Source of the DNA: Escherichia phage vB_EcoM_3HA14
Strand: one strand, 5' to 3'
Sequence record: MN342151.1
Length of the DNA: 64,000 nt
In this document: positions 31,493 to 52,310 of the stretch, piece after piece
Layout: each line of letters begins with the position of its first letter
Position numbering within the stretch: position 1 is the stretch's first letter
Notes under the pieces: generated by a model
What the model saw: only the letters and a program-made list of their open reading frames with translations
The model's database searches: none
Told to the model about the DNA's origin: nothing
Made by a program: the position numbers and the translations under genes

Positions 31493-33109
31493 TTATCGTC
31501 TTAGCCCCTGATATGGATTACTCTTCATAATATCTGTATGAGCACCCATTGAAGGTGGCTTGAATAGTTTAACTTCGTTTAGACTGTTGAAAGCATCACT
31601 GGTAGCATCCACTTGGTCATCCTTAGTACGACCGTCACCACAAAAACCTTCTAGTTCTTGGAAATATGCTTCATTCCAAGAGCCTCTAACAATTTTGACA
31701 AGTCCTGCCTCAGAAGCAGCAGAGAAACCCGCAAAACGGGTGACTTTATCTTTATTTGTTGGTTTAGCTCTTGCTCGGAAACCTTTCTCAGCAAGTTTTC
31801 TAATAAGGGAGGTTGCGTAGGATTTACCAGCAGCGCCGGGGTCTTGAGGGATAAAAATACCTGTGCGCTTACCATCACCTTCAGCAGTTTGGTTAATTTG
31901 TGTTTCAACTCCAGAAGGTCTATCTCTAAATCTTACTACGTTAATCACATAATAGCAACCATCTTTTTTAGATTTACCCATTTTAACACCTGCTGTCCAG
32001 TCAGGGTTAGGGTTAACCTCAGAAGGTAATGTTGCTGCTAAGTCCCATGCTCTTACGTCAAATACGTCTGCTGGAACACTATCAACAATTTCACACCATT
32101 GTCTTTGCCAGTAGTTTGAACCTTCAGCACGAGCTTTCCAGTTACCAAAACGTAAACGTGCAACGTTAACTGGTGTGTTGTTTTCTAATTTACCACGATA
32201 CTTAGGTTCAAGGAAATCTAGAATAGGGTTGTCATCAATTGTACCGGAAATAAAGGTATATGTTTGAGGAATCTCAAGAGGGAACATTTCAAGAATTTTA
32301 TCTCTATCCCAATCAGAAACCATGACACCATCATTCATAACATACCAACGAATCCTGCCGCACTTCTCTGGGTCTGGATATCCAGCATCATCTAGGAAAG
32401 GTTCTACCCAATCATAAATAAAGTGGTCTCTATCTGGGTTCATTGAGATTTTCATATATGAGTCACCTTCAGCGCCAGAACGTAAACGTGTCTGAAGATA
32501 TGAAATCTGTGAAGCCGAGAAGTGTGTACCTTCGTCGAAATAAATAGCTGAGTATTCGATACCTTGGTGACCTTCTGAGTGTTTCTCAAGTTCCAAATAA
32601 GTAAACTTGATAGTTGCTCCAGAAGGGAAAGTGATAGTCATTTTCTGTTCATGTGGAACTCCACCAAACTTACCAAATAACTTTTTAGCCGCAGGCCACA
32701 GACCACCTTGTAACTGTGTTGTATTTCGACGGAAATAAACAGCGTTATAGTTTGGGTCTTCAATAAACCTTAATGAGTCCATTAAAAGGGCAGCAGTCTT
32801 ACCAGCACCAGCAGCACCACCATATAGTACCAAGTCAGCATTAGTGTTCAAGAATACCTCTTGAGAGCCAGGCTGTGGAGCTACATAGTTCTTGTCAGTC
32901 ATCAATTTAAAGATGAGTCTTACTTGGTCTGGGGTGTATCTTAATAAAGTCAGAATTTGAGTTGGAAGGAATTTAGAGGGGTCTTTACCAAAGGATTTGA
33001 TAATATCTTTTACTTCTTCAGAAAGCCCCAACTCACCTGCTAGGACTTTCCTTACATCTTCCACTCGCTTCTGCTTAATAACATTTAAGTCCATTAAGCA
33101 CCTCTGCAA
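31493..33109 (-). CDS. terminase large subunit (538 aa)
   Basis: Walker A motif LYGGAAGAGKTAALL near N-terminus; C-terminal nuclease-sized domain; followed by portal. Confidence 0.85.
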   Translation of the reverse strand: MQRCLMDLNVIKQKRVEDVRKVLAGELGLSEEVKDIIKSFGKDPSKFLPTQILTLLRYTPDQVRLIFKLMTDKNYVAPQPGSQEVFLNTNADLVLYGGAAGAGKTAALLMDSLRFIEDPNYNAVYFRRNTTQLQGGLWPAAKKLFGKFGGVPHEQKMTITFPSGATIKFTYLELEKHSEGHQGIEYSAIYFDEGTHFSASQISYLQTRLRSGAEGDSYMKISMNPDRDHFIYDWVEPFLDDAGYPDPEKCGRIRWYVMNDGVMVSDWDRDKILEMFPLEIPQTYTFISGTIDDNPILDFLEPKYRGKLENNTPVNVARLRFGNWKARAEGSNYWQRQWCEIVDSVPADVFDVRAWDLAATLPSEVNPNPDWTAGVKMGKSKKDGCYYVINVVRFRDRPSGVETQINQTAEGDGKRTGIFIPQDPGAAGKSYATSLIRKLAEKGFRARAKPTNKDKVTRFAGFSAASEAGLVKIVRGSWNEAYFQELEGFCGDGRTKDDQVDATSDAFNSLNEVKLFKPPSMGAHTDIMKSNPYQGLRR

Positions 33110-33115
33110 ATAGAA

Positions 33116-33322
33116 TTATTCAGAAACTTCTTCAGATTCCTGTTTAGGTTCTACACCAAACTTTTCATCTACTAAATTAAGAAGTTTATCCATCGTTGCT
33201 TCTTGTGGGTTAATACCAGTTGCAACAATTAAACGTTCAGCCACAGCCATTACAGTTGCCTGAAGCATCTGAGCCTGTTTCTGAGTCTCATATAGTTCTT
33301 TGTAAACATTAGTCTCGTTCAT
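33116..33322 (-). CDS. hypothetical protein (68 aa), possible terminase partner
   Basis: Small ORF directly upstream of large terminase; too small to assign. Confidence 0.35.
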   Translation of the reverse strand: MNETNVYKELYETQKQAQMLQATVMAVAERLIVATGINPQEATMDKLLNLVDEKFGVEPKQESEEVSE

Positions 33323-33541: not shown

Positions 33542-33617
33542 TGGAGTATCGGAAGGGACTCGAACCCTCATAAACCTGTTTTGCAGACAGGCACATAACC
33601 ATTTCTGACACCGACAC
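33542..33617 (-). tRNA. tRNA-Cys (GCA)
   Basis: Manual fold: acceptor GTGTCGG/CCGATAC, anticodon arm CCTGT-CTGCAAA-ACAGG, T-arm GAGGG-TTCGAGT-CCCTT, CCA encoded. Confidence 0.75.
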
Positions 33618-33623
33618 ATAATT

Positions 33624-33716
33624 TGGAGGAAGATACCAGACTTGAACTGGTACGCCGATTTCTCGGTTACTGGCAGTTTAGCAAACTGCTCCCTTACCTT
33701 TTAGGGTTAATCTTCC
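33624..33716 (-). tRNA. tRNA-Ser (GCT), long variable arm
   Basis: 93 nt; acceptor GGAAGAT/ATCTTCC perfect; anticodon loop TTGCTAA; long variable arm; T-loop TTCAAGT. Confidence 0.75.
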
Positions 33717-33717
33717 A

Positions 33718-34452
33718 TTATTTGTTCAGAGCTTCTTTCATCTCTGGAGTTGCGATAGTATCAATCACACCAGTTTTACATGAATCATCAAACCAGCTTG
33801 GTAGAACATTCGCAAGGAAACCATTAATATTTGTTTTCAGATATTCTGCAATCAGTGCTGCTTCATCTGCAATCATCTGAGTTACTTCGTTAGCATATGC
33901 AGTAATCTTTGCAATACCCTCATTAATCGCTGTAACGGCCTGTGTAGCGAGTTCAGAGATTGTATCTAGTCCTTGGTCGATTGCATCTTGCAAATCGCTT
34001 AGAACGCCATTTACAGCGTCTATGGAGGTATTAATCAAATCCATCGCTTTATTACCGTACTCGGTAGCTACGCCCATGATACCGCTAAACGGTGTACATC
34101 CAACCTGTTCACCTGCTGCTCCCATAACGTTAGAGTAACCTTTAGCTACTTGCATACGTTGTGAAAACTCATCTACAGACTTTTGTCCATACTCAGTAAG
34201 TGTACTTGTCGTTGAAGTTGTACTTCCAAGGCTTGTTGTGAAGCTTCCTAATAAGGCTGTTGTCAGTCCAGCAGCAACTAAAATCTGTTGTGTAGCTGGG
34301 TCTGTTACAGAACTAATTGAGTTAACTAATGATTGAGAGGCAGCTATAGTACCACCAAGAACTGCTGCACCAGTAATAAGAGGGTTTGAAAAACCATTAC
34401 CAGTTTTAAGGAGATTAAAAATCTCTTTACTTTGTTCTGTCATCTCTTTCAT
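33718..34452 (-). CDS. hypothetical Ala/Thr/Ser-rich protein (244 aa) within tRNA cluster
   Basis: ORF-track start (GTG at 34515) would run through a tRNA-Phe; ATG at 34452 has a GGTG RBS and avoids the tRNA. Confidence 0.5.
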   Translation of the reverse strand: MKEMTEQSKEIFNLLKTGNGFSNPLITGAAVLGGTIAASQSLVNSISSVTDPATQQILVAAGLTTALLGSFTTSLGSTTSTTSTLTEYGQKSVDEFSQRMQVAKGYSNVMGAAGEQVGCTPFSGIMGVATEYGNKAMDLINTSIDAVNGVLSDLQDAIDQGLDTISELATQAVTAINEGIAKITAYANEVTQMIADEAALIAEYLKTNINGFLANVLPSWFDDSCKTGVIDTIATPEMKEALNK

Positions 34453-34468
34453 TATGCACCTATAAAGT

Positions 34469-34545
34469 TGGTAGCCCATCGGGATTTGAACCCTGTTCTC
34501 ATGTTTTTCAGACACGCGCTTTAACCATATAAGCTAATTGAGCTA
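34469..34545 (-). tRNA. tRNA-Phe (GAA), atypical acceptor/D spacing
   Basis: Anticodon arm CGTGT-CTGAAAA-ACATG; D-arm GCTT-ATATGGTTA-AAGC; T-loop TTCAAAT; acceptor pairs only with a 1-2 nt offset and T-stem is weak. Confidence 0.55.
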
Positions 34546-34551
34546 TTAAAT

Positions 34552-34628
34552 TGGGGTGACCTACGGGAATCGAACCCGTATAGACCATGTTCACAGCATG
34601 GGTCATTATCCATTTATGATAAGGCCAC
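34552..34628 (-). tRNA. tRNA-His (GTG)
   Basis: Anticodon arm CCATG-CTGTGAA-CATGG; D-arm TCAT/ATGA; acceptor GTGGCCT/AGGTCAC; CCA encoded. Confidence 0.75.
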
Positions 34629-34659
34629 ATTTAAGGACTCTCGTAAGAATCCTTAGAAG

Positions 34660-34735
34660 TGGCAGCAGTATAAGGATTTGAACCTTAATCTTTCAGCTTC
34701 AGAGGCTGGAGCATTGCCAGTTATGCTATACTGCT
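34660..34735 (-). tRNA. tRNA-Gln (CTG)
   Basis: 76 nt; anticodon loop CTCTGAA; D-arm GCAT/ATGC; acceptor AGCAGTA/TACTGCT perfect. Confidence 0.7.
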
Positions 34736-34741
34736 AATATT

Positions 34742-34820
34742 TGGTACTCCATATCGGATTCGAACCGATACATAACACAGATTTTAAATCTGGCCTCTCT
34801 GCCAATTGGAGTAATGGAGC
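34742..34820 (-). tRNA. tRNA with Leu anticodon (TAA) but short variable arm
   Basis: Anticodon loop TTTAAAA; D-loop AATTGGCAGAG (Leu-like); variable region about 7 nt; discriminator A; T-arm ATCGG-TTCGAAT-CCGAT. Confidence 0.6.
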
Positions 34821-34822
34821 AT

Positions 34823-34898
34823 TGGCGGGGGATGATGGAATTGAACCATCTTCTTCGATTTCAAAGACCGAGGTTTTAACCTTGTAAACTAATCCCCT
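34823..34898 (-). tRNA. tRNA-Gln (TTG)
   Basis: Anticodon arm TCGGT-CTTTGAA-ATCGA; D-arm GTTT/AAAC; position 1:72 mismatched. Confidence 0.65.
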
Positions 34899-35124
34899 AA
34901 CGAACTCTTGAAAGAATATATGCGTTATTGCAAGTATCCTTATTTTCAGGTAGTGATGTTTCGAAGATAACTTGCTTAAGTTCTAATCCAGCAAAGTTAT
35001 AAACAACCTTTCTAACTTCTAACGGGTCACATTGCCAACCAACCGCTATAAAGAAAGTATCTCCAAATCTACCTGTTTCAATCTTGTGGTCATCTTTATG
35101 TTTTTCAACTATGAGTTTATACAT
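34897..35124 (-). CDS. hypothetical protein (75 aa) between tRNA genes
   Basis: ORF fills the gap between two tRNAs. Confidence 0.35.
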   Translation of the reverse strand: MYKLIVEKHKDDHKIETGRFGDTFFIAVGWQCDPLEVRKVVYNFAGLELKQVIFETSLPENKDTCNNAYILSRVR

Positions 35125-35142
35125 AATGTTACCTATTAAATT

Positions 35143-35219
35143 TGGTGCAGAATAGAGGATTCGAACCCCTAACTAACAACTTCGTAGGTTGCTGCTCTGT
35201 CCATTTGAACTAATTCTGC
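35143..35219 (-). tRNA. tRNA-Arg (ACG)
   Basis: Acceptor GCAGAAT/ATTCTGC perfect; anticodon arm GCAAC-CTACGAA-GTTGT. Confidence 0.75.
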
Positions 35220-35381
35220 AATATCCTTTTGAGATTCCTGTCTAGCTCTCTTCTTATCTCTTCTGAGAAAGCGTTTACGATGGTCTGTACGCCATTTGTA
35301 ATAATCTTCTTCACCATCATGCGCTGCACAGCAGCCACAACTTGCAATTTCAACTTTACCATGTCTACCATAAGGCTTCAT
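35169..35381 (-). CDS. hypothetical Cys-rich basic protein (70 aa)
   Basis: ORF whose 3' 51 nt overlap tRNA-Arg; CxC plus basic KRxRR-like segment. May be real or chance. Confidence 0.3.
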   Translation of the reverse strand: MKPYGRHGKVEIASCGCCAAHDGEEDYYKWRTDHRKRFLRRDKKRARQESQKDIAELVQMDRAATYEVVS

Positions 35382-35397
35382 AGGAATCTCCTAAAAT

Positions 35398-35475
35398 TGG
35401 TGTTCCAAGACGGATTCGAACCGTCACTAATACAAGGTTTGAGCTTGCATCCTCTGCCAATTGGGATACTGGAAC
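35398..35475 (-). tRNA. tRNA with Leu anticodon (CAA) but short variable arm
   Basis: Anticodon arm GCAAG-CTCAAAC-CTTGT; D-loop AATTGGCAGAG; variable region about 6 nt; discriminator A. Confidence 0.6.
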
Positions 35476-35476
35476 T

Positions 35477-35551
35477 TGGTACTCGCTGAAGGACTTGAAC
35501 CTTCTTCACCAACTTGTAAGGATGGGGCTTTACCATATAAACTAAGCGAGC
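35477..35551 (-). tRNA. tRNA-Val (TAC)
   Basis: Anticodon loop CTTACAA; T-arm GAAGG-TTCAAGT-CCTTC; separated by 1 nt from the neighbouring tRNA. Confidence 0.7.
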
Positions 35552-35646
35552 TTTGAAGAGGTCTGAAGCTGTGCCGCTAACTCAACTCCGTGGAATTTGT
35601 TACGGTCTTCAGTTGACTCAAGCGGTCTTTCACTTGACCTCAAAAT

Positions 35647-35723
35647 TGGTGCTGCTCACAGGACTCGAACCTGCATCTCCATCCTTACAAGGGATGTGCA
35701 ATAGCCAATTATACGAAAGCAGC
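35647..35723 (-). tRNA. tRNA-Thr (TGT)
   Basis: Anticodon arm CATCC-CTTGTAA-GGATG perfect; T-loop TTCGAGT. Confidence 0.75.
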
Positions 35724-35729
35724 ATTATT

Positions 35730-35804
35730 TGGAGCATCCAGAGGGAATCGAACCCTCAACCTCAGTTTGGAAGACTGTAATTTTCCCATTTAAACTATGG
35801 ATGC
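35730..35804 (-). tRNA. tRNA-Gly (TCC)
   Basis: Acceptor GCATCCA/TGGATGC perfect; anticodon loop CTTCCAA. Confidence 0.75.
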
Positions 35805-35810
35805 ACTAAT

Positions 35811-35886
35811 TGGTGGAGAAGCAGGGAATTGAACCCTGTACTTAAGTTTGCAAAACTTATGTTTTAACCATGTAAACTACATCCCC
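35811..35886 (-). tRNA. tRNA-Ala (TGC)
   Basis: Anticodon arm TAAGT-TTTGCAA-ACTTA perfect; D-arm GTTT/AAAC; G3:U70 wobble (Ala identity element) present. Confidence 0.8.
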
Positions 35887-35892
35887 ATTGTT

Positions 35893-35968
35893 TGGTACAG
35901 GTGGAGGGAATTGAACCCATCGTCTTACTGATTAAGAGTCAGCCGCATAACCATTTTGCTACACCTGC
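35893..35968 (-). tRNA. tRNA-Lys (CTT)
   Basis: Anticodon arm GCTGA-CTCTTAA-TCAGT; T-stem only 3 bp (GGG/CCC). Confidence 0.6.
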
Positions 35969-35975
35969 ATTAATT

Positions 35976-36052
35976 TGGTACACCTAGAGAGATTCGAACT
36001 CACACTGAGCAGATTCTAAGTCTGCTGCCTCTTCCAATTGGGCTATAGGTGC
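35976..36052 (-). tRNA. tRNA with Leu anticodon (TAG) but short variable arm
   Basis: 77 nt; anticodon arm GCAGA-CTTAGAA-TCTGC perfect; D-loop AATTGGAAGAG; 5-nt variable loop; discriminator A. Confidence 0.65.
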
Positions 36053-36305
36053 ATTAAATCTTTGTAGAGAACTGCTAAGACGCCAAAGCAACAATGGTAT
36101 CAAATGCCTTAACAATTCTCTAAAAAGACCTATTGGCCTCTGCATAGTCTTGCTTAATCCGGTGACTAGAACCTTTGGAGAGCTTGATACTATCTCTTCT
36201 CCGTGACACCTACTAGGTGCTTTACCAGTGCCGTGTACGCCAATACACGAAGAGGAAACCTGAAACACTTGCTCGAACAAATAGTCTCAGCTTTAAATCT
36301 TATTA

Positions 36306-36395
36306 GGCGGTAGATAAAGGAGTCGAACCCTCACCGTATCTCTACAATGGCAACTGTTTTCAAGACAGTTTGGCTTCCATTAGCCGCTACCTACC
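36306..36395 (-). tRNA. tRNA-Ser (TGA), long variable arm
   Basis: About 90 nt; anticodon arm ACTGT-CTTGAAA-ACAGT; long variable arm; 3' CC encoded but not the terminal A. Confidence 0.7.
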
Positions 36396-36408
36396 CCTAA
36401 TAAGACTT

Positions 36409-36491
36409 TGGCATGGGACGGAGGATTCGAACCCCTTTGAGTAAGTTTTGGAGGCTTACGCACATGCCTTAGTGTCTTAACATCGTCCCAT
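36409..36491 (-). tRNA. atypical tRNA-like gene, possibly tRNA-Trp (CCA)
   Basis: Perfect 7-bp acceptor ATGGGAC/GTCCCAT and T-arm. Anticodon stem GTAAG/CTTAC encloses a 9-nt loop CCTCCAAAA (CCA anticodon if the closing pair is unpaired); D region about 8 nt longer than canonical. Confidence 0.5.
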
Positions 36492-36656
36492 ACTATATTT
36501 CGAAGCTTACCCTGTTATCTCAACACTGTCAAGCTTCTTCTCAGATTATTTACATGTTCTGGAAAACATGAGATACAGACCACCTCCTTATGAGATTGAC
36601 TCTTTCAAGTCAATGCGGAGACCCATAAAGGTCGTCATAGTAATCTGCTAACTAAT

Positions 36657-36724
36657 TGGCAGTCAAGGTAGGAGTCGAACCTACTTACTATTAAAGGGAG
36701 CTACCCTTCAGCAACTATCCGACT
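36657..36724 (-). tRNA. tRNA-like element (truncated or non-canonical)
   Basis: Canonical T-arm GTAGG-TTCGACT-CCTAC and CCA end, but only about 68 nt to the best acceptor match; no convincing anticodon arm. Confidence 0.35.
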
Positions 36725-36785
36725 TTCGTTTATCTCTTAACGCGTATCCAAGATAACTTACTCGTGTTGTCTTGACCATTAAAAT

Positions 36786-36862
36786 TGGCACACCCTACAG
36801 GATTCGAACCTGTAACTGACGGTTTAGAAGACCGTTGCTCTATCCGTTTGAACTAAGGGTGC
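36786..36862 (-). tRNA. tRNA-Arg (TCT)
   Basis: Anticodon arm ACGGT-CTTCTAA-ACCGT perfect; T-arm ACAGG-TTCGAAT-CCTGT. Confidence 0.75.
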
Positions 36863-37066
36863 ATTATCTTTAAAGGCTCTCTTAGAAAACCCTTAAAGAT
36901 GCCCACTTTATTAATCATACCGTGGGCTAGTACGCCAAATTCTTTAACAGGGAGTTGGAATACCCTGCTGGTGTTTAGCCTATTAAGCTACTGCCAGAAA
37001 AACATTATCGTTTGCATTTATTTTTAAGTTTTTAAAATAGACGCTACGCTAACGAAAACTAAGGTT

Positions 37067-37095
37067 ATCTTAAAGTGGTCACATCTAAATGTCAA
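37067..37095 (-). promoter_or_regulatory. possible internal sigma70-like promoter in tRNA cluster spacer
   Basis: On - strand: TTGACA (37090-37095), 17-nt spacer, TAAGAT (37067-37072). Confidence 0.3.
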
Positions 37096-37109
37096 CAACT
37101 TTATGAAAT

Positions 37110-37187
37110 TGGTTGTAGGTGAGGGTATCGAACCCTCTTCTAACGGTTATCAGCCGTTTGCATTACCATTTATGCTAACCCACAATT
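37110..37187 (-). tRNA. tRNA-Ile (GAT)
   Basis: Anticodon arm AACGG-CTGATAA-CCGTT perfect; D-arm GCAT/ATGC. Confidence 0.75.
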
Positions 37188-37189
37188 GG

Positions 37190-37266
37190 AGGTTCAGGTG
37201 GGAATCGAACCCACATTCATAGGGCTTATGAAACCCTTGCATTACCTTATCTGCGACTGAACCATT
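37190..37266 (-). tRNA. tRNA-Met (CAT), elongator-like
   Basis: Acceptor GGTTCAG/CTGAACC perfect; anticodon arm AGGGT-TTCATAA-GCCCT; 1:72 paired, so not initiator-like. Confidence 0.7.
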
Positions 37267-37344
37267 ATAAGTTGCCCCTTTGTAGAGAACTGATTGAGTG
37301 GGTGTTTCCAGCCGCGCATGTGTTCTTCAGTTAAGGGGCGAATT

Positions 37345-37421
37345 TGGTAGAAGTGGAGGGATTCGAACCCGTCGCCTGTCAGATTAAAAGTCTGCCGCAT
37401 CACCATTCTGCTACACTTCCA
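37345..37421 (-). tRNA. tRNA-Lys (TTT)
   Basis: Anticodon region GCAGA-CTTTTAA-TCTGA; weak T-stem like the CTT isoacceptor. Confidence 0.65.
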
Positions 37422-37606
37422 TTAAATCATCTTTGCAGTAACCTACGCAAACCTTGCTAAAGGGTTTGTAGAGTCATCTCTTATAAGCTAATCTAGAATC
37501 ATGCTCAAGAGACTCTTCGGCACTCATGGGACGACTGGTTAGCTCCATAAGTCACTGCAAAGAGGATTACCAGACCGTATTTATCTTAAGTGCTTCCATT
37601 ACACCA

Positions 37607-37643
37607 ACACGCCGTAACGTGTGAAGGAATCGAACCTTCGCCT
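37607..37643 (-). ncRNA. orphan T-arm-like hairpin with adjacent stem-loop (tRNA-like module without acceptor or anticodon)
   Basis: Sense strand GAAGG-TTCGATT-CCTTC followed by ACACG-TTACGG-CGTGT; no pairing acceptor found within 100 nt. Confidence 0.3.
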
Positions 37644-37844
37644 TTTCTTTACCAGAGAAATAGATTGTTTATTGTTTGCTGTAAACGGTCTTCTGTAAAA
37701 TTGTTGGAACCAGACCAAGTTTTAAATTTTTCAAATTAAATTGGCTTGAAATATTAAAATTGCTTGCTGTATTTGGTCTTCTGCTCCTTTAAAGAATACT
37801 CGTAAGAACTCTTTAAGGGAGGGGCTAAAAAGCCCTCTCAAATT

Positions 37845-37921
37845 TGGCGGTTACGAAGGGATTCGAACCCTCATCATCCTCCGTGACAGGGAGGTATTTT
37901 GACCAGTTAAACTACATAACC
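37845..37921 (-). tRNA. tRNA-Asp (GTC)
   Basis: Anticodon arm CCTCC-CTGTCAC-GGAGG perfect; T-arm GAGGG-TTCGAAT-CCCTT. Confidence 0.75.
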
Positions 37922-37927
37922 TTTATT

Positions 37928-38015
37928 TGGTGCGCCGTGAAGGAGTCGAACCTCCCGAGTCATAATGACAAGTGATTTACAGTCACCACCGCTTCCATCT
38001 ACGGGATAACGACGC
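37928..38015 (-). tRNA. tRNA-Tyr (GTA), long variable arm
   Basis: 88 nt; anticodon arm GGTGA-CTGTAAA-TCACT; variable-arm hairpin TGTCA..TGACT. Confidence 0.7.
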
Positions 38016-38083
38016 ATTTTATTCTATTCAGGCTAAGGACTTGCACCTTACAAATCGGTGAGCAATCGCTTCTCTCCCAAATC

Positions 38084-38161
38084 TTGGCGGTTAGTCAGGG
38101 ATTCGAACCCTGTACCATTCGGTTAACAGCCGACCGCACATGCCTTATGTGCTTCCTAACC
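38084..38161 (-). tRNA. tRNA-Asn (GTT)
   Basis: Anticodon loop CTGTTAA; D-arm GCAC/GTGC; T-arm CAGGG-TTCGAAT-CCCTG. Confidence 0.7.
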
Positions 38162-38245
38162 ATGTTAGTATTACCAGACCGTATCTTTTCATTTTTTGCC
38201 TATAAAAAATTTTAAGTGTTTGCTGTAAACGGCCTTCTGTAAATT

Positions 38246-38322
38246 TGGAGGCGGGTGTAGGAGTCGAACCTACCGATAACATGCTAATGAGACATGTGAG
38301 ACACCCTTTCTCTATACCCGCA
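38246..38322 (-). tRNA. tRNA with CAT anticodon (Met or Ile2), 1:72 mismatch
   Basis: Anticodon arm CATGT-CTCATTA-GCATG; first acceptor pair unpaired (T:C). Confidence 0.6.
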
Positions 38323-38409
38323 ATTCTTAATGACCAGACCAAATCTTTTTTGGATTTCTATGCGCGAAATTGAAAAGTTTGTTTGCTGTAATTGGTCTTC
38401 TGTCAAAAC

Positions 38410-38487
38410 TGGCATTCCCGAAGGGACTTGAACCCTCAAACCACACCTTGAAAGGGTGTTGACTTTACCTAATTTGTCTACGGGAAT
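38410..38487 (-). tRNA. tRNA-Glu (TTC)
   Basis: Acceptor ATTCCCG/CGGGAAT perfect; anticodon arm ACACC-CTTTCAA-GGTGT perfect. Confidence 0.75.
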
Positions 38488-38493
38488 ATAATT

Positions 38494-38573
38494 TGGTCTC
38501 CGTTGAAGGATTTGAACCTTCGACCCCTTGCTCCCAAAGCAAGTGCTGCTAAACCAAACTGAGCTAAACGGAG
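38494..38573 (-). tRNA. tRNA-Pro (TGG)
   Basis: Acceptor CTCCGTT/AACGGAG perfect; anticodon arm CTTGC-TTTGGGA-GCAAG perfect. Confidence 0.75.
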
Positions 38574-48210: not shown

Positions 48211-48661
48211 AGAGACAGTACGCAAAGCTTTGCTTAACAACGGGACTAAAGATGATATGTACAAAGATATCGTTGCAGAATTTGGTTGTTCAAGACATGC
48301 TGCAAAGGTTCTTCTTCATAGCTTTATCTGGGAGTGCTCAGAAGCTTACATGGTTCATGCAGCTTTTTCAGAATCTCACTTACAAGCCGATAAAGACTTG
48401 TTAGCACCATATGACTTACGTGAACAAGAGCATGAAAGTGACATTAAAACAAACACTGTGTACATGATTAGAGACACTCATACAGATTTGGTAGTAGCAA
48501 CTATCAAGATTGAGAGGGAAGTTCCTGATTGTGGTTTTGAAGGTGATATTAATAGTGCAGATTTAGACACGGTATTCAGTCGTGGTGGAAGATGGTTGGT
48601 AGGTTATGATGGTTATATCACAGTTGATTATCAACGTTCAAAGTATCAGATTAAAGTGTGA
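48197..48661 (+). CDS. hypothetical protein (154 aa)
   Basis: Start moved to internal ATG (MKNVKET...) overlapping the previous stop. Confidence 0.4.
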   Translation: MKNVKETVRKALLNNGTKDDMYKDIVAEFGCSRHAAKVLLHSFIWECSEAYMVHAAFSESHLQADKDLLAPYDLREQEHESDIKTNTVYMIRDTHTDLVVATIKIEREVPDCGFEGDINSADLDTVFSRGGRWLVGYDGYITVDYQRSKYQIKV

Positions 48662-49329
48662 TTATGGGACACCTACTGAAGAAGAGTTGGAAGAACTTAA
48701 CAGATATGGTTCCCCATCTGAAGAGGAAGAGAAAGAACTCCGAAGAATGGGAAGCAATTACTAAGAAATGCTTTAAGGATTTGATAGAGATGAAAAAGTT
48801 TAAACTTGACAGGAAGTATCTGGTACTGAGTGTGAATGATATTAACACTTATCTGTCAGAGGGTGAGCAAGAGTATCTTAATAACATTGTTGAAATACTC
48901 TACAATGCACGTATAGAGGATTGTAAAGACCAACTTGAAGGTATCTTTATCAAGAAGTCTTATCCGTTCTATGAAGATACTTTGAAGAAACTTGAGATGT
49001 ATGTTAAGCAGCAGAACCGTAAAGAGTTCTCTATGATTTCTCTTGGTGGACAACAAATGCTGGTTATGGAAGATATAAACCCTAAAAGAACCAACAAAGG
49101 TGTTTGTATCAAGGTCACAGGTAAAGAAGAATTTGTTGAATATGACATACTCAGACACATTATAGATGGTTTGGGTGCTGTACTGAACATGAATGAATAC
49201 CATATTAGTTCACACCCGATTAAGGGTGACCAGATAATGATTCAGGTAAGAGAACGTCATAATGGGTTCACACACTTCTTCCAGACTTCTAAAACTTCAT
49301 TGCAAACTATGCTTAGTGAAGTGATGTAA
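48658..49329 (+). CDS. hypothetical protein (223 aa)
   Basis: Last gene of + block; followed by terminator. Confidence 0.45.
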   Translation: MIMGHLLKKSWKNLTDMVPHLKRKRKNSEEWEAITKKCFKDLIEMKKFKLDRKYLVLSVNDINTYLSEGEQEYLNNIVEILYNARIEDCKDQLEGIFIKKSYPFYEDTLKKLEMYVKQQNRKEFSMISLGGQQMLVMEDINPKRTNKGVCIKVTGKEEFVEYDILRHIIDGLGAVLNMNEYHISSHPIKGDQIMIQVRERHNGFTHFFQTSKTSLQTMLSEVM

Positions 49330-49337
49330 AACTATAC

Positions 49338-49361
49338 AGCCCCTTAATTGGGGCTTTTATT
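49338..49361 (+). terminator. rho-independent terminator closing the + strand block
   Basis: AGCCCC-TTAATT-GGGGCT followed by TTTATTT. Confidence 0.6.
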
Positions 49362-49364
49362 TAG

Positions 49365-50870
49365 TAAAATTTACGAAATTTATAATTTTTATAAAATTTG
49401 GGATTCACTCCGTTCATCTTGGGTCACCATGATATGTGATAAAATATCTATACCCCTTCTAAACACCCTTTCTAAGCATCATCTCTATATAGTATTATAT
49501 AGTATCTATATAGCCTCTTAGTCCCTAAATAGTGCTCTCTATATAGCCCTCTATAAAGCCTTCTAAGCCTCCCATTAATCAACCCTATACAATCACCTTC
49601 CTAACCTCTTCATAGCCCCTTAGAAGCCCCTATACTCATCTTAATCTCTAGGTAAACGATAGTACCCTATATAGCAGAATCACTAGGTATTACTAAGCCT
49701 CTATATAGACTGTTATATAGCACTAAACAGGTATTCCCTGTAAATGCTTATCCTACAAGGTCTAACACGGTACTAACAAGGTCTCTTATAAGCCTGTTAA
49801 TTCCTGTTTTATATAAGATAGTGTATAGATAGTTATTCAGAATTATAAAATTTTTATAAAATAGACTAGGTAGGTTACTTTTTAGGTTCTTTGGAGAATC
49901 TGAAAAATATCTACAGAGTGTGTATATCTGCTTGGTAGCCCTTAACAGCCCTGTAACATCCCCTTTGCAAAATCTTAAAATATCATTAACAATCTCTTAA
50001 CAACTCTCCCAAGCTCTTAACATCTCTTCAAAGTTCTTAACAGTCTCTTAACAGAACTAACAAGAGCTTAACCATTCTGTAACATTACTAACAAGAGTCT
50101 AACAAGTTGCTTATAAGTTGCTAAATAGTTAAATCTTAAGAGTTATTTTGTTAAGATAATTAACAAGATGCTAACAAGTTCTAAACCTTTTTAACAGTCT
50201 CTTAACATGGTCACTATCTCTTGGTCTATAGTTCCCTTCCTCTTCTTAGTGATTCTCTATAAAGCCCTCTTAAAAGCTCTCTGTAGCTCTGTATAGCCTC
50301 TTCTAAGCTTCTCCCTAGTAACTACACCCCAACTACCTGTATAGCTCTTTATAGGGCTTTCTAGGGGCTTATACAGGGACTTCAAAGAGTCTAACAAGCT
50401 TTTAACATACCACTAACAAGGATTTAACAAGGGGCTAACAAGTCTCTAATAAGCATAACTATGTAGCATTTGTTAAGATTTTGTTAAGAGAATGTAAAGG
50501 GGGCTAACTTTTACGTTACTTTTAAGGTTCTTTTACGTTACTTTGAAGACTCCATAACATACTTTAAAGCTATTATCAAGCCCCTTTGTAACCATTCACA
50601 AGATACTAACGAGATAATAAAGCTTATACCCTTATAAGATTCTTTTAAGGCTCTAGAAAGCTCTATAAAGGGCTTTTAAGAGTAGGTTAATATGATTGCT
50701 TAAGATGAGATGATAAGCCCGTATAGAGCGTTATAGAGCGTTTTAGGGATTGCCCTTCCCTTTCGGGTTATGGGCTTATATTTAAGGGAATTTATAGTTG
50801 ATTTGATAAGAGGATATAGAGTAAGCTATAGAGTTATTGTTCTAAATGTCTGGTAAGATTCTAGGAAGAC
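49365..50870. other. about 1.5 kb ORF-free, repeat-dense non-coding region
   Basis: No ORF of 60 aa or more on either strand. Dense in short reiterated words: CTATATAG palindromes, TAACAAG, CTCTTAACA (about 7 copies in 49980-50060), CTATAAAGCCCTCT; AATTATAAAATTTTTATAAAAT near-palindrome at about 49376 and 49840. Flanked by convergent terminators. Confidence 0.6.
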
Positions 50871-50872
50871 GT

Positions 50873-50897
50873 AAAAAAGCCCCATCTAAGGGGCTGT
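50873..50897 (-). terminator. rho-independent terminator closing the - strand small-gene block
   Basis: On - strand: AGCCCC-TTAGATG-GGGCT followed by TTTTTT. Confidence 0.6.
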
Positions 50898-50936
50898 AAA
50901 GGTGTCTGGGGCTATTTGCCCCGTTGCGGCGACTTG

Positions 50937-51188
50937 TTAGTTATTGAAGCCGTCAACTTCATAGTAAAGCGTGATAAGAGAATCACCCCAATAGTAAGAG
51001 GATTTGCCATCCTTTAAGACTTCTTGTTTTACTTCTTTCCAGAACCACTCAGATTGATTGTAGTCCTGAATAGTTGCTTTTAGACACATATCAACCATGC
51101 CAAAAACATCGCCAGTTCCAACCATATCAAATTTAACATCTAATACATGGAAGCCAAAATTGTTAACAGTTGCGTGGATAGTAGCCAT
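50937..51188 (-). CDS. hypothetical small protein (83 aa)
   Basis: ORF immediately after a conserved leader cassette. Confidence 0.5.
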   Translation of the reverse strand: MATIHATVNNFGFHVLDVKFDMVGTGDVFGMVDMCLKATIQDYNQSEWFWKEVKQEVLKDGKSSYYWGDSLITLYYEVDGFNN

Positions 51189-51253
51189 TTTCAGATTCTC
51201 CAGTTTAGGAATTTAGGTTAGTGGGGAAGTCTCCCTCCCCGTTGAAAGTAATA

Positions 51254-51517
51254 TTAATTCATTGCTGCATAAGTTGCAAGTCTTTTTTCATTGTATTTTG
51301 TAAGAATCTCACAAGATAAAACGTCATACTTTGCAACGGCTTCAGATTTAGTTAAACCAAAATGGCTTACAATTTCACCATTCATGAATCCGACTACTTC
51401 ATAAGATTCTGCGATGATTTCACCGTTGAACCAATCACTTTCAATACGTTTGCAAAGTTGGATATCTTCTTTGTCAGTACCGATTTGTAACAGGATAGTG
51501 ATTTCTTGATTATTCAT
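51254..51517 (-). CDS. hypothetical small protein (87 aa)
   Basis: ORF directly after leader cassette. Confidence 0.5.
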   Translation of the reverse strand: MNNQEITILLQIGTDKEDIQLCKRIESDWFNGEIIAESYEVVGFMNGEIVSHFGLTKSEAVAKYDVLSCEILTKYNEKRLATYAAMN

Positions 51518-51577
51518 TTTCTAGTCTCCAGTTTAGGATTGTTGGGGAAGGTCATTCCCTCCCCGTTGATAAGTACT

Positions 51578-52105
51578 TTATAGATTTGTGATGATTTCGT
51601 CAAGGGAATTTTCTAAGTTTTTTAAAGATTGTTCGTAAAGCCTAATTCCCCTATTTAATGCTTCCCCTAACGTAATTTTAAAATTAGTTGTTGGGTAGTC
51701 ACTTGTAAAGATGTTTTCCACTTCATAGAGTGGGTATTGTTGGTTACCCGTTCCCATAGCATACATCCCTGTATAATGGATTGCAATAAAAAGATTATGG
51801 GACTTAATAGAGCGCTCATAAGCCATTTTAAAGCGGTTTAACTCGTTTTTAGTTGCCTTAATAGCCATTTCGTGAATTTCTGCGACTATAGCCATATAAT
51901 CATTCAGAATGAGAGAAATAGCCCCCATAAAGTTGTTAGCTGTTACCGCTTTTACATTTGGTCGGTGTACATAAAACTTCTTATCTTCCCCTTTTGTGAT
52001 AACTGCAAAAACTTTGCTCTTTAAGGTAAATTCCCAAGTATCTTTACAAGGCTTGCTCATCACTTCACGGCTACGGATTGCATTAACAGCATTAAACTTA
52101 TTCAT
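51578..52105 (-). CDS. hypothetical protein (175 aa)
   Basis: ORF directly after leader cassette. Confidence 0.5.
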   Translation of the reverse strand: MNKFNAVNAIRSREVMSKPCKDTWEFTLKSKVFAVITKGEDKKFYVHRPNVKAVTANNFMGAISLILNDYMAIVAEIHEMAIKATKNELNRFKMAYERSIKSHNLFIAIHYTGMYAMGTGNQQYPLYEVENIFTSDYPTTNFKITLGEALNRGIRLYEQSLKNLENSLDEIITNL

Positions 52106-52169
52106 TCTAGATTCTCCAGTTTAGGAATTTTGTTTAGTGGGGAAGTTTCCCTCCCCGTTGATGAATACT

Positions 52170-52310
52170 TTACTTGTTTTGATTCTGCATTGCAAGTAGT
52201 TTTTTATCAAAAACTTTATCTGAGATTTCACCAATGATGAGCATTGCTAATGGCAACACAACAGAAACAATCATACCGCAAAGGATAGGGTTTTTAATGA
52301 TATCTAGCAT
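52170..52310 (-). CDS. small membrane protein (46 aa)
   Basis: Not in ORF track. Hydrophobic product MLDIIKNPILCGMIVSVVLPLAMLIIGE...; C-terminus ...LAMQNQNK identical to the end of gene 55622..55969; preceded by a truncated cassette. Confidence 0.35.
   Translation of the reverse strand: MLDIIKNPILCGMIVSVVLPLAMLIIGEISDKVFDKKLLAMQNQNK

What the first reader, a model, noticed from the sequence alone, without database searches (positions are those of the whole stretch)
49365..50870. 1.5 kb ORF-free, repeat-dense region between convergent terminators
No ORF of 60 aa or more exists on either strand across about 1.5 kb, which is unusual in a tightly packed phage genome. The sequence is built from reiterated short words (CTATATAG palindromes, TAACAAG, CTCTTAACA, CTATAAAGCCCTCT) and a twice-occurring AT-rich near-palindrome (about 49376 and 49840). 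It sits where + and - transcription units converge. This fits an iteron-rich replication origin, a protein-binding array or a non-coding RNA locus.
Basis: seen in the sequence. Interest (0 to 1): 0.75.

Follow-up and report, generated by a model that had tools for sequence, protein, structure and literature searches.

The report
Phage genome ends and packaging junction
The 1.5-kb gene-free stretch is where this Felix O1-like phage's linear DNA begins and ends: a 571-bp terminal repeat packed with evenly phased TTAACA words, plus two conserved flanks. This is a known kind of packaging region, though its internal design has not been described.

Summary
Window 49330-50936 has no ORF of 60 aa or more, lies between convergent terminators, and is very rich in short words (CTAACAAG 8 copies against 0.06 expected). 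The window is a Felix O1-like myovirus (Ounavirinae, Mooglevirus group). Relatives whose records are opened at the physical DNA ends (HP1, I14.1, Pr103Blw, SPJ41, REP10, Erwinia phage M7) place both ends inside this gap. Window 49934-50504 is therefore the single collapsed copy of a 571-bp direct terminal repeat (DTR). The rest of the gap is two conserved unique flanks. The DTR holds 20 TAACA words on one strand (1.3 expected), phased at about 10.4 bp. These words are invariant across 11 genomes while the spacers between them vary. Indels come only in 11- or 22-bp units, and the word orientation flips at the far end. The best reading is a T7-style concatemer junction whose word arrays assemble the packaging and cutting machinery. 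No small terminase is recognisable in this lineage. I found no support for a DnaA-type origin or a structured ncRNA. The DTR is already published for relatives; the array design is an undescribed detail. Interest is moderate to low.

The parts
49338..49355 (+). Intrinsic terminator that ends the + strand transcription unit (AGCCCC-loop-GGGGCT, then a T run).
   Evidence: Conserved in relatives and annotated as a terminator in Michonne and AYO145A.
49356..49399 (.). AT-rich tract that includes copy 1 of the conserved motif AAATTTTTATAAAAT (49383-49397). Part of the tract is deleted in Felixounavirus genomes.
   Evidence: (D15).
49400..49933 (.). Unique non-coding flank lying just inside the right-end copy of the terminal repeat (window orientation). 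It holds CTATATAG / CTCTATAAAGCC word arrays of 10-12-bp units at 49483-49720, the conserved inverted repeat TCACCATGATATGTGA near 49425-49440, and copy 2 of the AT-rich motif at 49848-49862.
   Evidence: Conservation 0.80-0.96 across 11 genomes.
49920..49947 (+). Terminal-repeat boundary A. The virion DNA end falls between 49933 and 49934. The sequence GTATATCTGCTTGG|TAGCCCTTAACA is invariant in all 11 genomes.
   Evidence: The HP1 and I14.1 right ends both map to 49934. Alignment. This is the only segment still alignable with the Erwinia phages.
49934..50504 (.). Direct terminal repeat (DTR), 571 bp, present here as one collapsed copy.
   Evidence: It corresponds exactly to the HP1 570-bp, I14.1 581-bp and Pr103Blw 581-bp annotated terminal repeats. 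SPJ41 and REP10 also start here and hold two copies.
49943..50207 (+). TTAACA array I: 17 same-strand TAACA words with spacings of 9, 11, 20, 22, 33 and one of 61 bp.
   Evidence: Words are invariant and spacers variable.
50255..50375 (.). Block of CTATAAAG / CTGTATAG / CTTTATAG words inside the DTR. It includes an internal inverted pair (50257-50278 and 50343-50364).
   Evidence: (D2, D6, I9).
50392..50443 (+). TTAACA array II: five (C/T)TAACA(A/T) words at exact 11-bp steps. Copy number varies by 11-bp units among relatives.
   Evidence: (D1).
50468..50504 (-). Terminal-repeat boundary B. Here the words are in inverted orientation (TTGTTAAG twice, then TGTAAAG, which is TGTTAAG in 7 of 11 genomes) at 11-bp steps, ending in GGGGGC. 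The virion DNA end falls between 50504 and 50505.
   Evidence: The HP1, I14.1 and Pr103Blw left ends map to 50504. Alignment. Longest inverted repeat in the region, I1.
50505..50870 (.). Unique non-coding flank lying just inside the left-end copy of the terminal repeat. It holds ACTTTTACGTT x3.5 (50507-50544), an invariant block at 50620-50685, TATAGAGCGT x2.5 (50722-50746), and the motifs TTGATAAG...CTATAGAGTTATTG at 50803-50838.
50751..50783 (.). GC-rich hairpin-forming element of about 33 nt that is 100% conserved (TTGCCCTTCCCTTTCGGGTTATGGGCTTATATT). Its role is unknown.
   Evidence: Alignment. The fold is not more stable than shuffles.
50878..50895 (-). Intrinsic terminator that ends the - strand transcription unit.
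   Evidence: Annotated in Michonne and AYO145A.

Best explanation
The gap is the terminal-repeat (concatemer-junction) region of a phage that packages DNA with fixed ends and a short direct terminal repeat.

Layout. Window 49934-50504 is that repeat, shown here as one copy because the assembly collapses the two ends. In window orientation the virion DNA starts at 49934 and ends at 50504 after a second pass through the repeat. Both neighbouring gene blocks are transcribed toward the ends and stop at the two terminators.

Proposed mechanism. About 23 TTAACA-type hexamers lie on one face of the helix across the repeat. They point inward from boundary A and flip orientation at boundary B. They are proposed to be binding sites for a sequence-specific packaging protein: a still unrecognised small-terminase equivalent, or a DNA-binding part of the large terminase. 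This protein would coat or wrap the repeat and position the terminase nuclease at the two boundaries. The repeat would then be duplicated during packaging, as in T7. The conserved flanks would carry accessory signals.

What is shown: the position of the ends by orthology, the enrichment, the phasing, the motif-specific conservation, the unit-length indels and the orientation flip.

What is inferred: who binds the words, that binding directs cutting, and how the repeat is duplicated.
For: Ends
- HP1 has an exact 570-bp repeat at both record ends, annotated as repeat_region. Its paper states direct repeats at both termini (PMC9120918).
- I14.1 has an exact 581-bp repeat. The paper reports PhageTerm DTRs for all six of its phages (PMC11737134).
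- Pr103Blw's annotated 'short direct terminal repeat region' 1-581 equals window 49934-50504 (PMC8303462).
- Ro111lw has a 613-bp DTR (PMC6454146).
- SPJ41 and REP10 start at the same point and hold two copies.
- Erwinia phage M7 has an exact 444-bp DTR with related end sequences.

Arrays
- TAACA occurs 20 times in the DTR against 1.3 in shuffles (maximum 6 in 2000 shuffles). No other 571-bp stretch of the window has more than 5.
- The long-range phase is 10.4 bp with Rayleigh power 10.0; the null 95% value is 6.9 and the 99.9% value 10.7.
- DTR periodicity exceeds all 215 background windows for TA, CT, AG and TAA.
- TAACA/TGTTA columns are invariant at 0.86, against 0.57 for the rest of the DTR.
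- All DTR indels longer than 1 nt are 11 or 21-23 nt.
- Each of the 11 genomes keeps 18-24 sites.
- The same 9/11/20/22 spacing pattern is present in M7.

Precedent: T7's left end has CCTAAAG heptamers at 13-bp steps at 175-340, next to its terminal repeat (the repeat's 160-bp length is from memory).

The whole gap aligns between genera better than the adjacent accessory genes do.
Against: - The ends of this particular phage were not measured. They are inferred from orthologous records 75-97% identical over the repeat.
- No binding protein was identified. There is no small terminase next to the large terminase gene.
- Unit-length indels can arise from replication slippage without any selection on phase.
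- The inverted likeness of the two boundaries rests on short words that are common in this region, so its statistical weight is limited.
- M7's reported ends lie about 3 nt outside those of the coliphage records.
- About 935 bp of conserved flank is more than a packaging signal alone is known to need, so other functions may overlap.
Confidence: 0.6

Rival explanations
1. The word arrays are iterons of a replication origin. A phage initiator binds the phased TTAACA words and opens a neighbouring AT-rich tract (49356-49399 or 49840-49865). The origin would coincide with, or overlap, the terminal repeat.
For: - Dense, phased, footprinted direct repeats.
- Two conserved AT-rich elements.
- The origin of Felix O1-like phages is unknown.
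- From memory, T7 has replication-associated promoters close to its ends.
Against: - The words are 6-8 bp in an 11-bp register, not typical 17-22-bp iterons.
- No DnaA boxes.
- No initiator-like gene next to the gap; its neighbours have unknown function.
- Half of AT-rich tract 1 is deleted in Felixounavirus genomes.
- The GC-skew turn follows the coding-strand switch.
- The arrays fill exactly the measured terminal repeat and flip orientation at its end, which points to end formation instead.
Confidence: 0.12
2. The arrays bind a protein that acts on the DNA ends after or during ejection rather than in packaging. Possibilities are end protection against host exonucleases, control of DNA entry (as proposed for the repeat-rich injection-stop region of T5), or a host nucleoid or response-regulator-type protein that binds tandem 10-11-bp repeats.
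For: - The words sit at both virion ends, pointing inward from each end.
- The helical phasing fits cooperative one-face binding.
- The PhageMaP authors suggest that Bas63 lacks a RecBCD inhibitor.
- The direct-repeat pattern resembles sites for tandem winged-helix binders. This is from memory and was not tested.
Against: No candidate protein was found, and no two-step ejection is known for this group. The hypothesis does not by itself explain why the arrays stop exactly at the repeat boundaries. It is compatible with, not exclusive of, a packaging role.
Confidence: 0.15
3. The region encodes one or more non-coding RNAs transcribed from internal promoters.
For: - Strong conservation without ORFs.
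- The weak promoter-like match TTTACG-N16-TAAAAT at 49370-49397.
- An invariant GC hairpin at about 50751-50783.
Against: - No Rfam family at E of 1 or less beyond chance-level hits.
- Six tested segments fold no better than shuffles, with z from +0.68 to -1.36.
- Promoter-like sites number 13, against 11.1 expected.
- The pattern of conserved short words with free spacers and unit indels is a DNA-site signature, not an RNA-helix signature.
Confidence: 0.05
4. The repeats are neutral by-products of slippage in a dispensable spacer that merely supplies homology for joining genomes into concatemers.
For: The indels are unit-length. Small palindromic elements insert here freely in relatives. A terminal repeat needs only identity between its two copies for annealing.
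Against: - The words are invariant while the spacers diverge (0.86 against 0.57).
- Site number and spacing pattern persist into a different genus that infects Erwinia.
- The gap is better conserved than the adjacent genes.
Confidence: 0.05

Closest known systems
Phage T7 terminal repeat and concatemer junction, with the short-repeat arrays flanking the repeat (from memory, Dunn and Studier's SRL and SRR)
   Same: - A short, fixed direct terminal repeat in a non-coding region.
- Dense arrays of one 6-7-bp word on one strand at regular steps beside and inside the repeat. T7 has CCTAAAG at 13-bp steps at 175-340, with further copies inside the first 160 bp.
- PhageTerm classifies Felix O1-like phages as T7-type short-DTR packagers.
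   Different: - A myovirus of an unrelated family, with no phage RNA polymerase.
- The repeat is 571 bp rather than 160 bp.
- The main array lies inside the repeat rather than beside it.
- The step is 11 bp, averaging 10.4 (helical phase), rather than 13 bp.
- The word orientation flips at the far boundary.
- Genes are transcribed toward the ends rather than inward from the left end.
- T7 has a known small terminase (gp18, from memory), whereas none is recognised here.
Published and annotated terminal repeats of Felix O1-like phages (Pr103Blw 581 bp, Ro111lw 613 bp, HP1 570 bp, I14.1 581 bp, M7 444 bp)
   Same: This is the orthologous sequence: window 49934-50504 aligns end to end with these repeats.
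   Different: Those reports give only the length and the packaging class. None of the papers read here describes the word arrays, their phasing, the boundary motifs or the conserved flanks.
Repeat-rich non-coding 'injection stop signal' region in the terminal repeat of phage T5
   Same: A non-coding stretch of more than a kilobase, associated with a terminal repeat and crowded with direct and inverted repeats. This comparison is from memory and was not tested here.
   Different: T5's repeat is about 10 kb and carries genes. Two-step DNA transfer is not known for Felix O1-like phages. No sequence similarity was examined.
Plasmid centromere arrays such as parC of R1 (tandem 11-bp iterons bound by ParR)
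   Same: Tandem words at 11-bp steps that would place a cooperative binder along one face of the helix. This is a likeness of working principle only, recalled from memory.
   Different: There are no partition genes, the phage is lytic, and the array sits in a terminal repeat. It is not a member of this family.

Membership tests
Short direct terminal repeat (T7-type fixed-end packaging) | The same sequence is present at both physical ends of the virion DNA. | tested here: met
   This was met in orthologous records: HP1 570 bp exact, I14.1 581 bp exact, M7 444 bp exact. Pr103Blw is annotated, and SPJ41 and REP10 hold two copies. For the window's own phage it is inferred by orthology, because no reads are available.
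Short direct terminal repeat (T7-type fixed-end packaging) | Fixed, non-permuted ends at defined nucleotides. | tested here: met
   Independent records from different laboratories map to the same two window positions, 49934 and 50504. PhageTerm DTR calls are reported in PMC8303462, PMC6454146 and PMC11737134. M7's ends differ by about 3 nt.
Short direct terminal repeat (T7-type fixed-end packaging) | The repeat is duplicated from a single-copy concatemer junction by terminase cutting plus DNA synthesis. | not testable with these tools
   This needs analysis of replicating DNA and packaging intermediates.
T7-like short-word arrays at the terminal repeat | One short word reiterated on one strand at a regular step, beside or inside the repeat. 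| tested here: met
   Window: 20 TAACA in 571 bp, with 11 bp the commonest step. T7: CCTAAAG at 13-bp steps at 175-340.
Iteron-type replication origin | Iterons of about 17-22 bp next to an AT-rich unwinding element, with an initiator gene in cis. | tested here: not met
   The words are 6-8 bp in 11-bp units. AT-rich tracts exist. The neighbouring genes match only families of unknown function.
Iteron-type replication origin | Host DnaA boxes. | tested here: not met
   There is no TTWTNCACA match on either strand of 49330-50936.
Iteron-type replication origin | Replication initiates here. | not testable with these tools
   This needs marker-frequency or 2D-gel data. GC skew is confounded by coding-strand bias.
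Structured non-coding RNA locus | A match to a described RNA family, or a fold more stable than chance with covariation. | tested here: not met
   Rfam gave only chance-level hits. Six segments had z from +0.68 to -1.36. The conservation pattern is word-wise, not helix-wise.
Structured non-coding RNA locus | Its own promoter and terminator. | tested here: inconclusive
   Promoter-like sites are not above shuffles, 13 against 11.1. Both strong terminators belong to the inward-facing gene blocks. No transcript data are available.
Small-terminase recognition (pac/cos-type) site | A small terminase or other identified DNA-recognition subunit that binds the site. | tested here: not met
   The large terminase (31493-33109) has no small-terminase neighbour. 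The 68-aa upstream ORF and the 265-aa ORF match only families of unknown function. The Felix O1 paper also reports no TerS.

The most novel reading that the evidence does not exclude
In a phage lineage with no recognisable small terminase, the terminal repeat itself is the packaging signal. It would be a scaffold of about 570 bp carrying about 23 invariant, helically phased TTAACA sites that an unidentified protein coats or wraps. The switch of site orientation at the far boundary would define where the two end-forming cuts fall. This would be a recognition design different from the compact pac and cos sites studied so far.
Probability: 0.3. Interest if true: 0.55.

Novelty: new member of a known kind. 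Interest (0 to 1): 0.35.

Why it matters
It tells annotators of Felix O1-like phages, which are widely used in Salmonella and E. coli typing, biocontrol and therapy, that this 1.5-kb 'empty' region is the genome terminus and packaging junction. It is not a gap, an origin or junk, so genomes should be opened at window 49934 and 50504 and not at rIIA.

It also gives exact candidate cut sites and a testable set of binding words for a packaging system whose DNA-recognition component is still unknown. For engineering, insertions here should respect the TTAACA words and their 11-bp register.

Tried and rejected
- Rfam scan of 48500-51800 at E of 1 or less: only chance-level hits.
- RNA folding of six conserved segments on both strands: none better than shuffles.
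- Sigma-70 promoter scan: 13 sites against 11.1 expected, so no evidence for internal promoters.
- DnaA-box search: none.
- GC skew: it turns near 50 kb, but it tracks the coding strand everywhere in the window, so it says nothing about an origin.
- Search for the protein that reads the arrays: the genes flanking the gap, the 68-aa ORF upstream of the large terminase, the first 98 residues of the large terminase and the 265-aa ORF among the tRNAs gave no DNA-binding or small-terminase match in Pfam or PHROGs. The Pharokka-annotated relative I14.1 also lists no small terminase.
- The PhageMaP paper on the relative Bas63 targeted genes and gave no data for this region in the passages found.
- Helical phasing of the two flanks: not clearly above the window background, so the phasing claim is limited to the repeat itself.
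- 'repeat_region' features in the Danish wastewater phage records: these proved to be short internal repeats, not terminal repeats.
- One literature search failed because a term was too short.
- The centromere (parC-like) idea: rejected as membership, because there are no partition genes and the phage is lytic.

Full report
**1.

Window 49330-50936 (1607 bp) contains no ORF of 60 aa or more on either strand. The only larger ORF-free stretch in the 64 kb (36281-38144) lies inside the cluster of 26 tRNA genes.

The gap is bracketed by two intrinsic terminators. One is on the + strand at 49338-49355 and one on the - strand at 50895-50878. Both have GC-rich 6-bp stems followed by T runs. The flanking genes are transcribed toward the gap.

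Short words are hugely over-represented compared with the rest of the window:

| Word | Copies in the gap | Expected |
|---|---|---|
| CTAACAAG | 8 (none on the other strand) | 0.06 |
| TAACAAG | 10 | 0.13 |
| CTATATAG | 5 | 0.06 |
| TCTTAACA | 5 | 0.04 |

Tandem-repeat and repeat-family tools find many arrays with units of 10-12 bp. The AT-rich element that occurs twice is also real: 49375-49397 and 49840-49862 are 87% identical over 23 nt.

**2. What genome this is**

The region matches more than 250 phage records of the subfamily Ounavirinae (Felix O1-like myoviruses). The best matches, at about 95%, are Shigella phages Sf13, Sf15 and Sf17 and the Citrobacter Moogle/Michonne group.

In all of these the equivalent stretch is unannotated, or carries only small doubtful 'hypothetical' ORFs and terminator features.

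In Felix O1 itself the region lies at about 12.3-13.9 kb. This should be one of the two convergent junctions between the 'transcriptons' described in the genome paper. That paper also inferred 'short terminal repeats' from the genome size and found no small terminase.

**3. The key result: the physical DNA ends lie inside the gap**

Several relatives' records begin or end within the region and hold it twice.

- Citrobacter phage HP1, a close Mooglevirus relative, annotates a repeat_region at 1-570 and at 88766-89335. The two copies are identical. [quoted passage not shown]
- E. coli phage I14.1 carries an exact 581-bp repeat at both ends. The paper reports PhageTerm DTRs for all six of its phages.
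- Both phages map their two ends to the same window positions, 49934 and 50504.
- Pr103Blw's annotated 'short direct terminal repeat region' (1-581) aligns end to end with window 49934-50504. PhageTerm gave 581 bp in its paper.
- Ro111lw has a 613-bp DTR.
- SPJ41 and REP10 also start at this point and hold two copies.
- Erwinia phage M7, from a different genus, has an exact 444-bp repeat whose ends carry related sequence, displaced by about 3 nt.

Hence window 49934-50504 (571 bp) is the direct terminal repeat, present once because the two ends collapse in assembly. Segment 49360-49933 is unique non-coding DNA just inside the right-end copy. Segment 50505-50870 is unique non-coding DNA just inside the left-end copy (window orientation).

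**4. Anatomy of the repeat**

Enrichment. The repeat holds 20 TAACA words on the + strand and 3 on the - strand. Dinucleotide shuffles give 1.3 (maximum 6 in 2000 shuffles), and no other 571-bp stretch of the window exceeds 5.

Phasing. Nearest-neighbour spacings are 11 bp (ten times), then 9, 20, 22 and 33 bp. Over the whole repeat the positions are coherent at a period of 10.4 bp. The Rayleigh power is 10.0, against a null 95% value of 6.9 and a 99.9% value of 10.7. The words therefore lie on one face of the helix. For the patterns TA, CT, AG and TAA, the repeat's power in the 10-11.2-bp band exceeds all 215 background windows. The flanks do not clearly stand out.

Orientation. Words read inward from boundary A (GG TAGCCC TTAACA GCCCTG TAACA ...). 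At boundary B they flip, so that read inward from that end the sequence is GCCCCC TTTACA TTCTC TTAACA AAATC TTAACA, again at 11-bp steps. I treat the inverted likeness of the two boundaries as suggestive only, because these words are common in the region.

**5. Phylogenetic footprint**

I aligned 11 genomes from three genera (Mooglevirus, Suspvirus, Felixounavirus).

- The whole gap is well conserved, with majority conservation of 0.8-0.98 per 30-nt bin.
- Within the repeat, the TAACA/TGTTA columns are invariant at 0.86 against 0.57 elsewhere, while the 4-6-nt spacers vary freely.
- Both boundaries are invariant: GTATATCTGCTTGG|TAGCCCTTAACA, and TGT(T/A)AAGGGGGC|TA.
- Every indel longer than 1 nt inside the repeat is 11 or 21-23 nt long. 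Each genome keeps 18-24 sites although the repeat length varies from 569 to 625 bp. Slippage between tandem units could produce such indels without selection, so this fits a phase constraint but does not prove one.
- The gap aligns between genera from end to end, whereas the upstream accessory genes hardly align at the DNA level.
- Against the Erwinia phages, only boundary A and the first 110 bp or so of the repeat still align.
- M7's repeat keeps the TTAACA words and the 9/11/20/22 spacing pattern. In the equivalent gap of the related Erwinia phage phiEa21-4, the second word family is TTAGAAG rather than CTATAWAG.

**6. How it most likely works**

Fixed-end phages with a short terminal repeat replicate as concatemers and are cut at defined sites, and the repeat is regenerated during packaging. 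This is established for T7. PhageTerm assigns the Felix O1-like phages Ro111lw and Pr103Blw to the direct-terminal-repeat class, Ro111lw explicitly as T7-like.

I therefore read the gap as the concatemer junction. The phased, footprinted TTAACA sites would be the binding array for the DNA-recognition component of packaging, and the two invariant boundaries would be the cut sites. The flanks carry further conserved elements of unassigned role: the CTATAWAG arrays, two AAATTTTTATAAAAT motifs, an ACTTTTACGTT array and a fully invariant GC hairpin at about 50751-50783.

The steps that are shown are the location of the ends by orthology, the enrichment, the phasing, the site-specific conservation and the orientation flip. 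The steps that are inferred are the identity of the binding protein, the link between binding and cutting, and the duplication mechanism.

The binding protein is unidentified. The large terminase (31493-33109) sits next to the tRNA genes without a small-terminase partner. Nearby small ORFs match only families of unknown function.

My confidence that this is the terminal-repeat region is about 0.95. My confidence that the arrays serve packaging recognition is about 0.45.

**7. Rivals**

- *Iteron origin.* This is not excluded, but it lacks DnaA boxes, an adjacent initiator gene and iterons of typical size. Part of one AT-rich tract is deleted in Felixounavirus genomes. GC skew follows the coding strand.
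- *Structured ncRNA.* There is no Rfam match and no fold better than shuffles. Promoter-like sites are at chance level.
- *End protection, ejection control or a host binding protein.* This is compatible with the geometry but has no specific support.
- *Neutral slippage product.* This is contradicted by the word-specific conservation across genera.

**8. Comparison with what is known**

The closest system is the T7 terminal region. I verified there that CCTAAAG heptamers recur at 13-bp steps at 175-340, just inside the terminal repeat (whose 160-bp length is from memory), with further copies within it.

The differences here are as follows:

- The phage family is unrelated.
- The repeat is longer.
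- The array lies mainly inside the repeat.
- The array is in helical phase.
- The word orientation flips at one boundary.
- Flanking genes are transcribed toward the ends.
- No small terminase is recognised.

The terminal repeat of Felix O1-like phages is already published and annotated in several records. None of the papers I read describes its internal architecture. My literature search was limited to the open-access library.

**9. Verdict**

The finding is real, but it is explained by a known kind of element: the genome terminus and packaging junction of a short-DTR phage. The origin and ncRNA ideas are not supported, and 'protein-binding array' is plausible in a packaging sense.

The novelty is modest. 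It is a new member of a known kind, with an undescribed and testable array design. Interest is 0.35.

Noticed in passing
Relatives aligned to window ~50075-50155 and ~50595 (L005 heid, L013 Silverhawkium, L014 UAB_Phi87): A 22-23-nt palindromic insert, GGGATTGGTAACAATACCAATT, sits at different positions of the terminal-repeat region in different phages (three sites in Silverhawkium). This looks like a tiny mobile hairpin element. It is absent from this window.
   Followed up: partly
Relatives aligned to window ~49346, ~50580, ~50860 and ~50885 (L001 Michonne, L004 nataliec, L014 UAB_Phi87, L011 SUSP1, L013 Silverhawkium, L010 Bas63): A second palindromic insert of about 26 nt, (T)AGGATTCGATAGAnTCCTATCTCAT, occurs at variable sites. 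In Michonne and Bas63 it lies inside the loops of the two bounding terminators. It is absent from this window.
   Followed up: partly
window 50751-50783: TTGCCCTTCCCTTTCGGGTTATGGGCTTATATT is 100% identical in all 11 aligned genomes. It can form a GC hairpin, but the fold is not more stable than shuffles. Its function is unknown.
   Followed up: partly
window 49383-49397 and 49848-49862: The near-palindromic motif AAATTTTTATAAAAT is invariant at both sites across genera. Copy 1 follows the + strand terminator, and copy 2 lies about 75 bp outside repeat boundary A. Neither has a convincing -35 element.
   Followed up: partly
window 51500-52210, and loci L004 and L005: Intergenic segments of about 70-120 nt between the small - strand genes recur several times within a genome; for example, window 52103-52173 matches three places in nataliec. 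They are probably reiterated promoter or terminator cassettes of the early region, like the 39- and 57-bp direct repeats noted in the Felix O1 paper.
   Followed up: no
window 31493-33322: The large terminase (Terminase_6N/6C) has no recognisable small-terminase partner. Its Terminase_6N match begins at residue 96, so the first ~95 residues have no Pfam match. The only upstream ORF before the tRNA genes is 68 aa (phrog_4397, unknown function).
   Followed up: partly
window 33542-38573: A cluster of 26 tRNA genes lies on the - strand, interspersed with small ORFs and one 265-aa DUF7217 protein at 33718-34515.
   Followed up: no
L006, L008 and L020 (PP892526.1): The GenBank taxonomy line of phage vB_EcoM_I14.1 says Demerecviridae, Tequintavirus (T5-like). 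However, the genome is collinear with Felix O1-like phages, and its terminal repeat is orthologous to the one here. The record is probably mislabelled.
   Followed up: no
L016 and L017 (Erwinia phage M7), against window 49931-49934 and 50504-50507: M7's reported ends lie about 3 nt outside the positions reported for the coliphage and Citrobacter phage records at both boundaries (TTA|GCC...). This could reflect short overhangs or a difference in method.
   Followed up: no
L015 2320-3509 (Erwinia phage phiEa21-4): The equivalent gap of about 1.2 kb keeps the TTAACA words (14 copies). Its second most frequent word family is TTAGAAG, in place of the CTATAWAG words seen here. This hints at a second DNA-protein pair that has diverged between genera.
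   Followed up: partly
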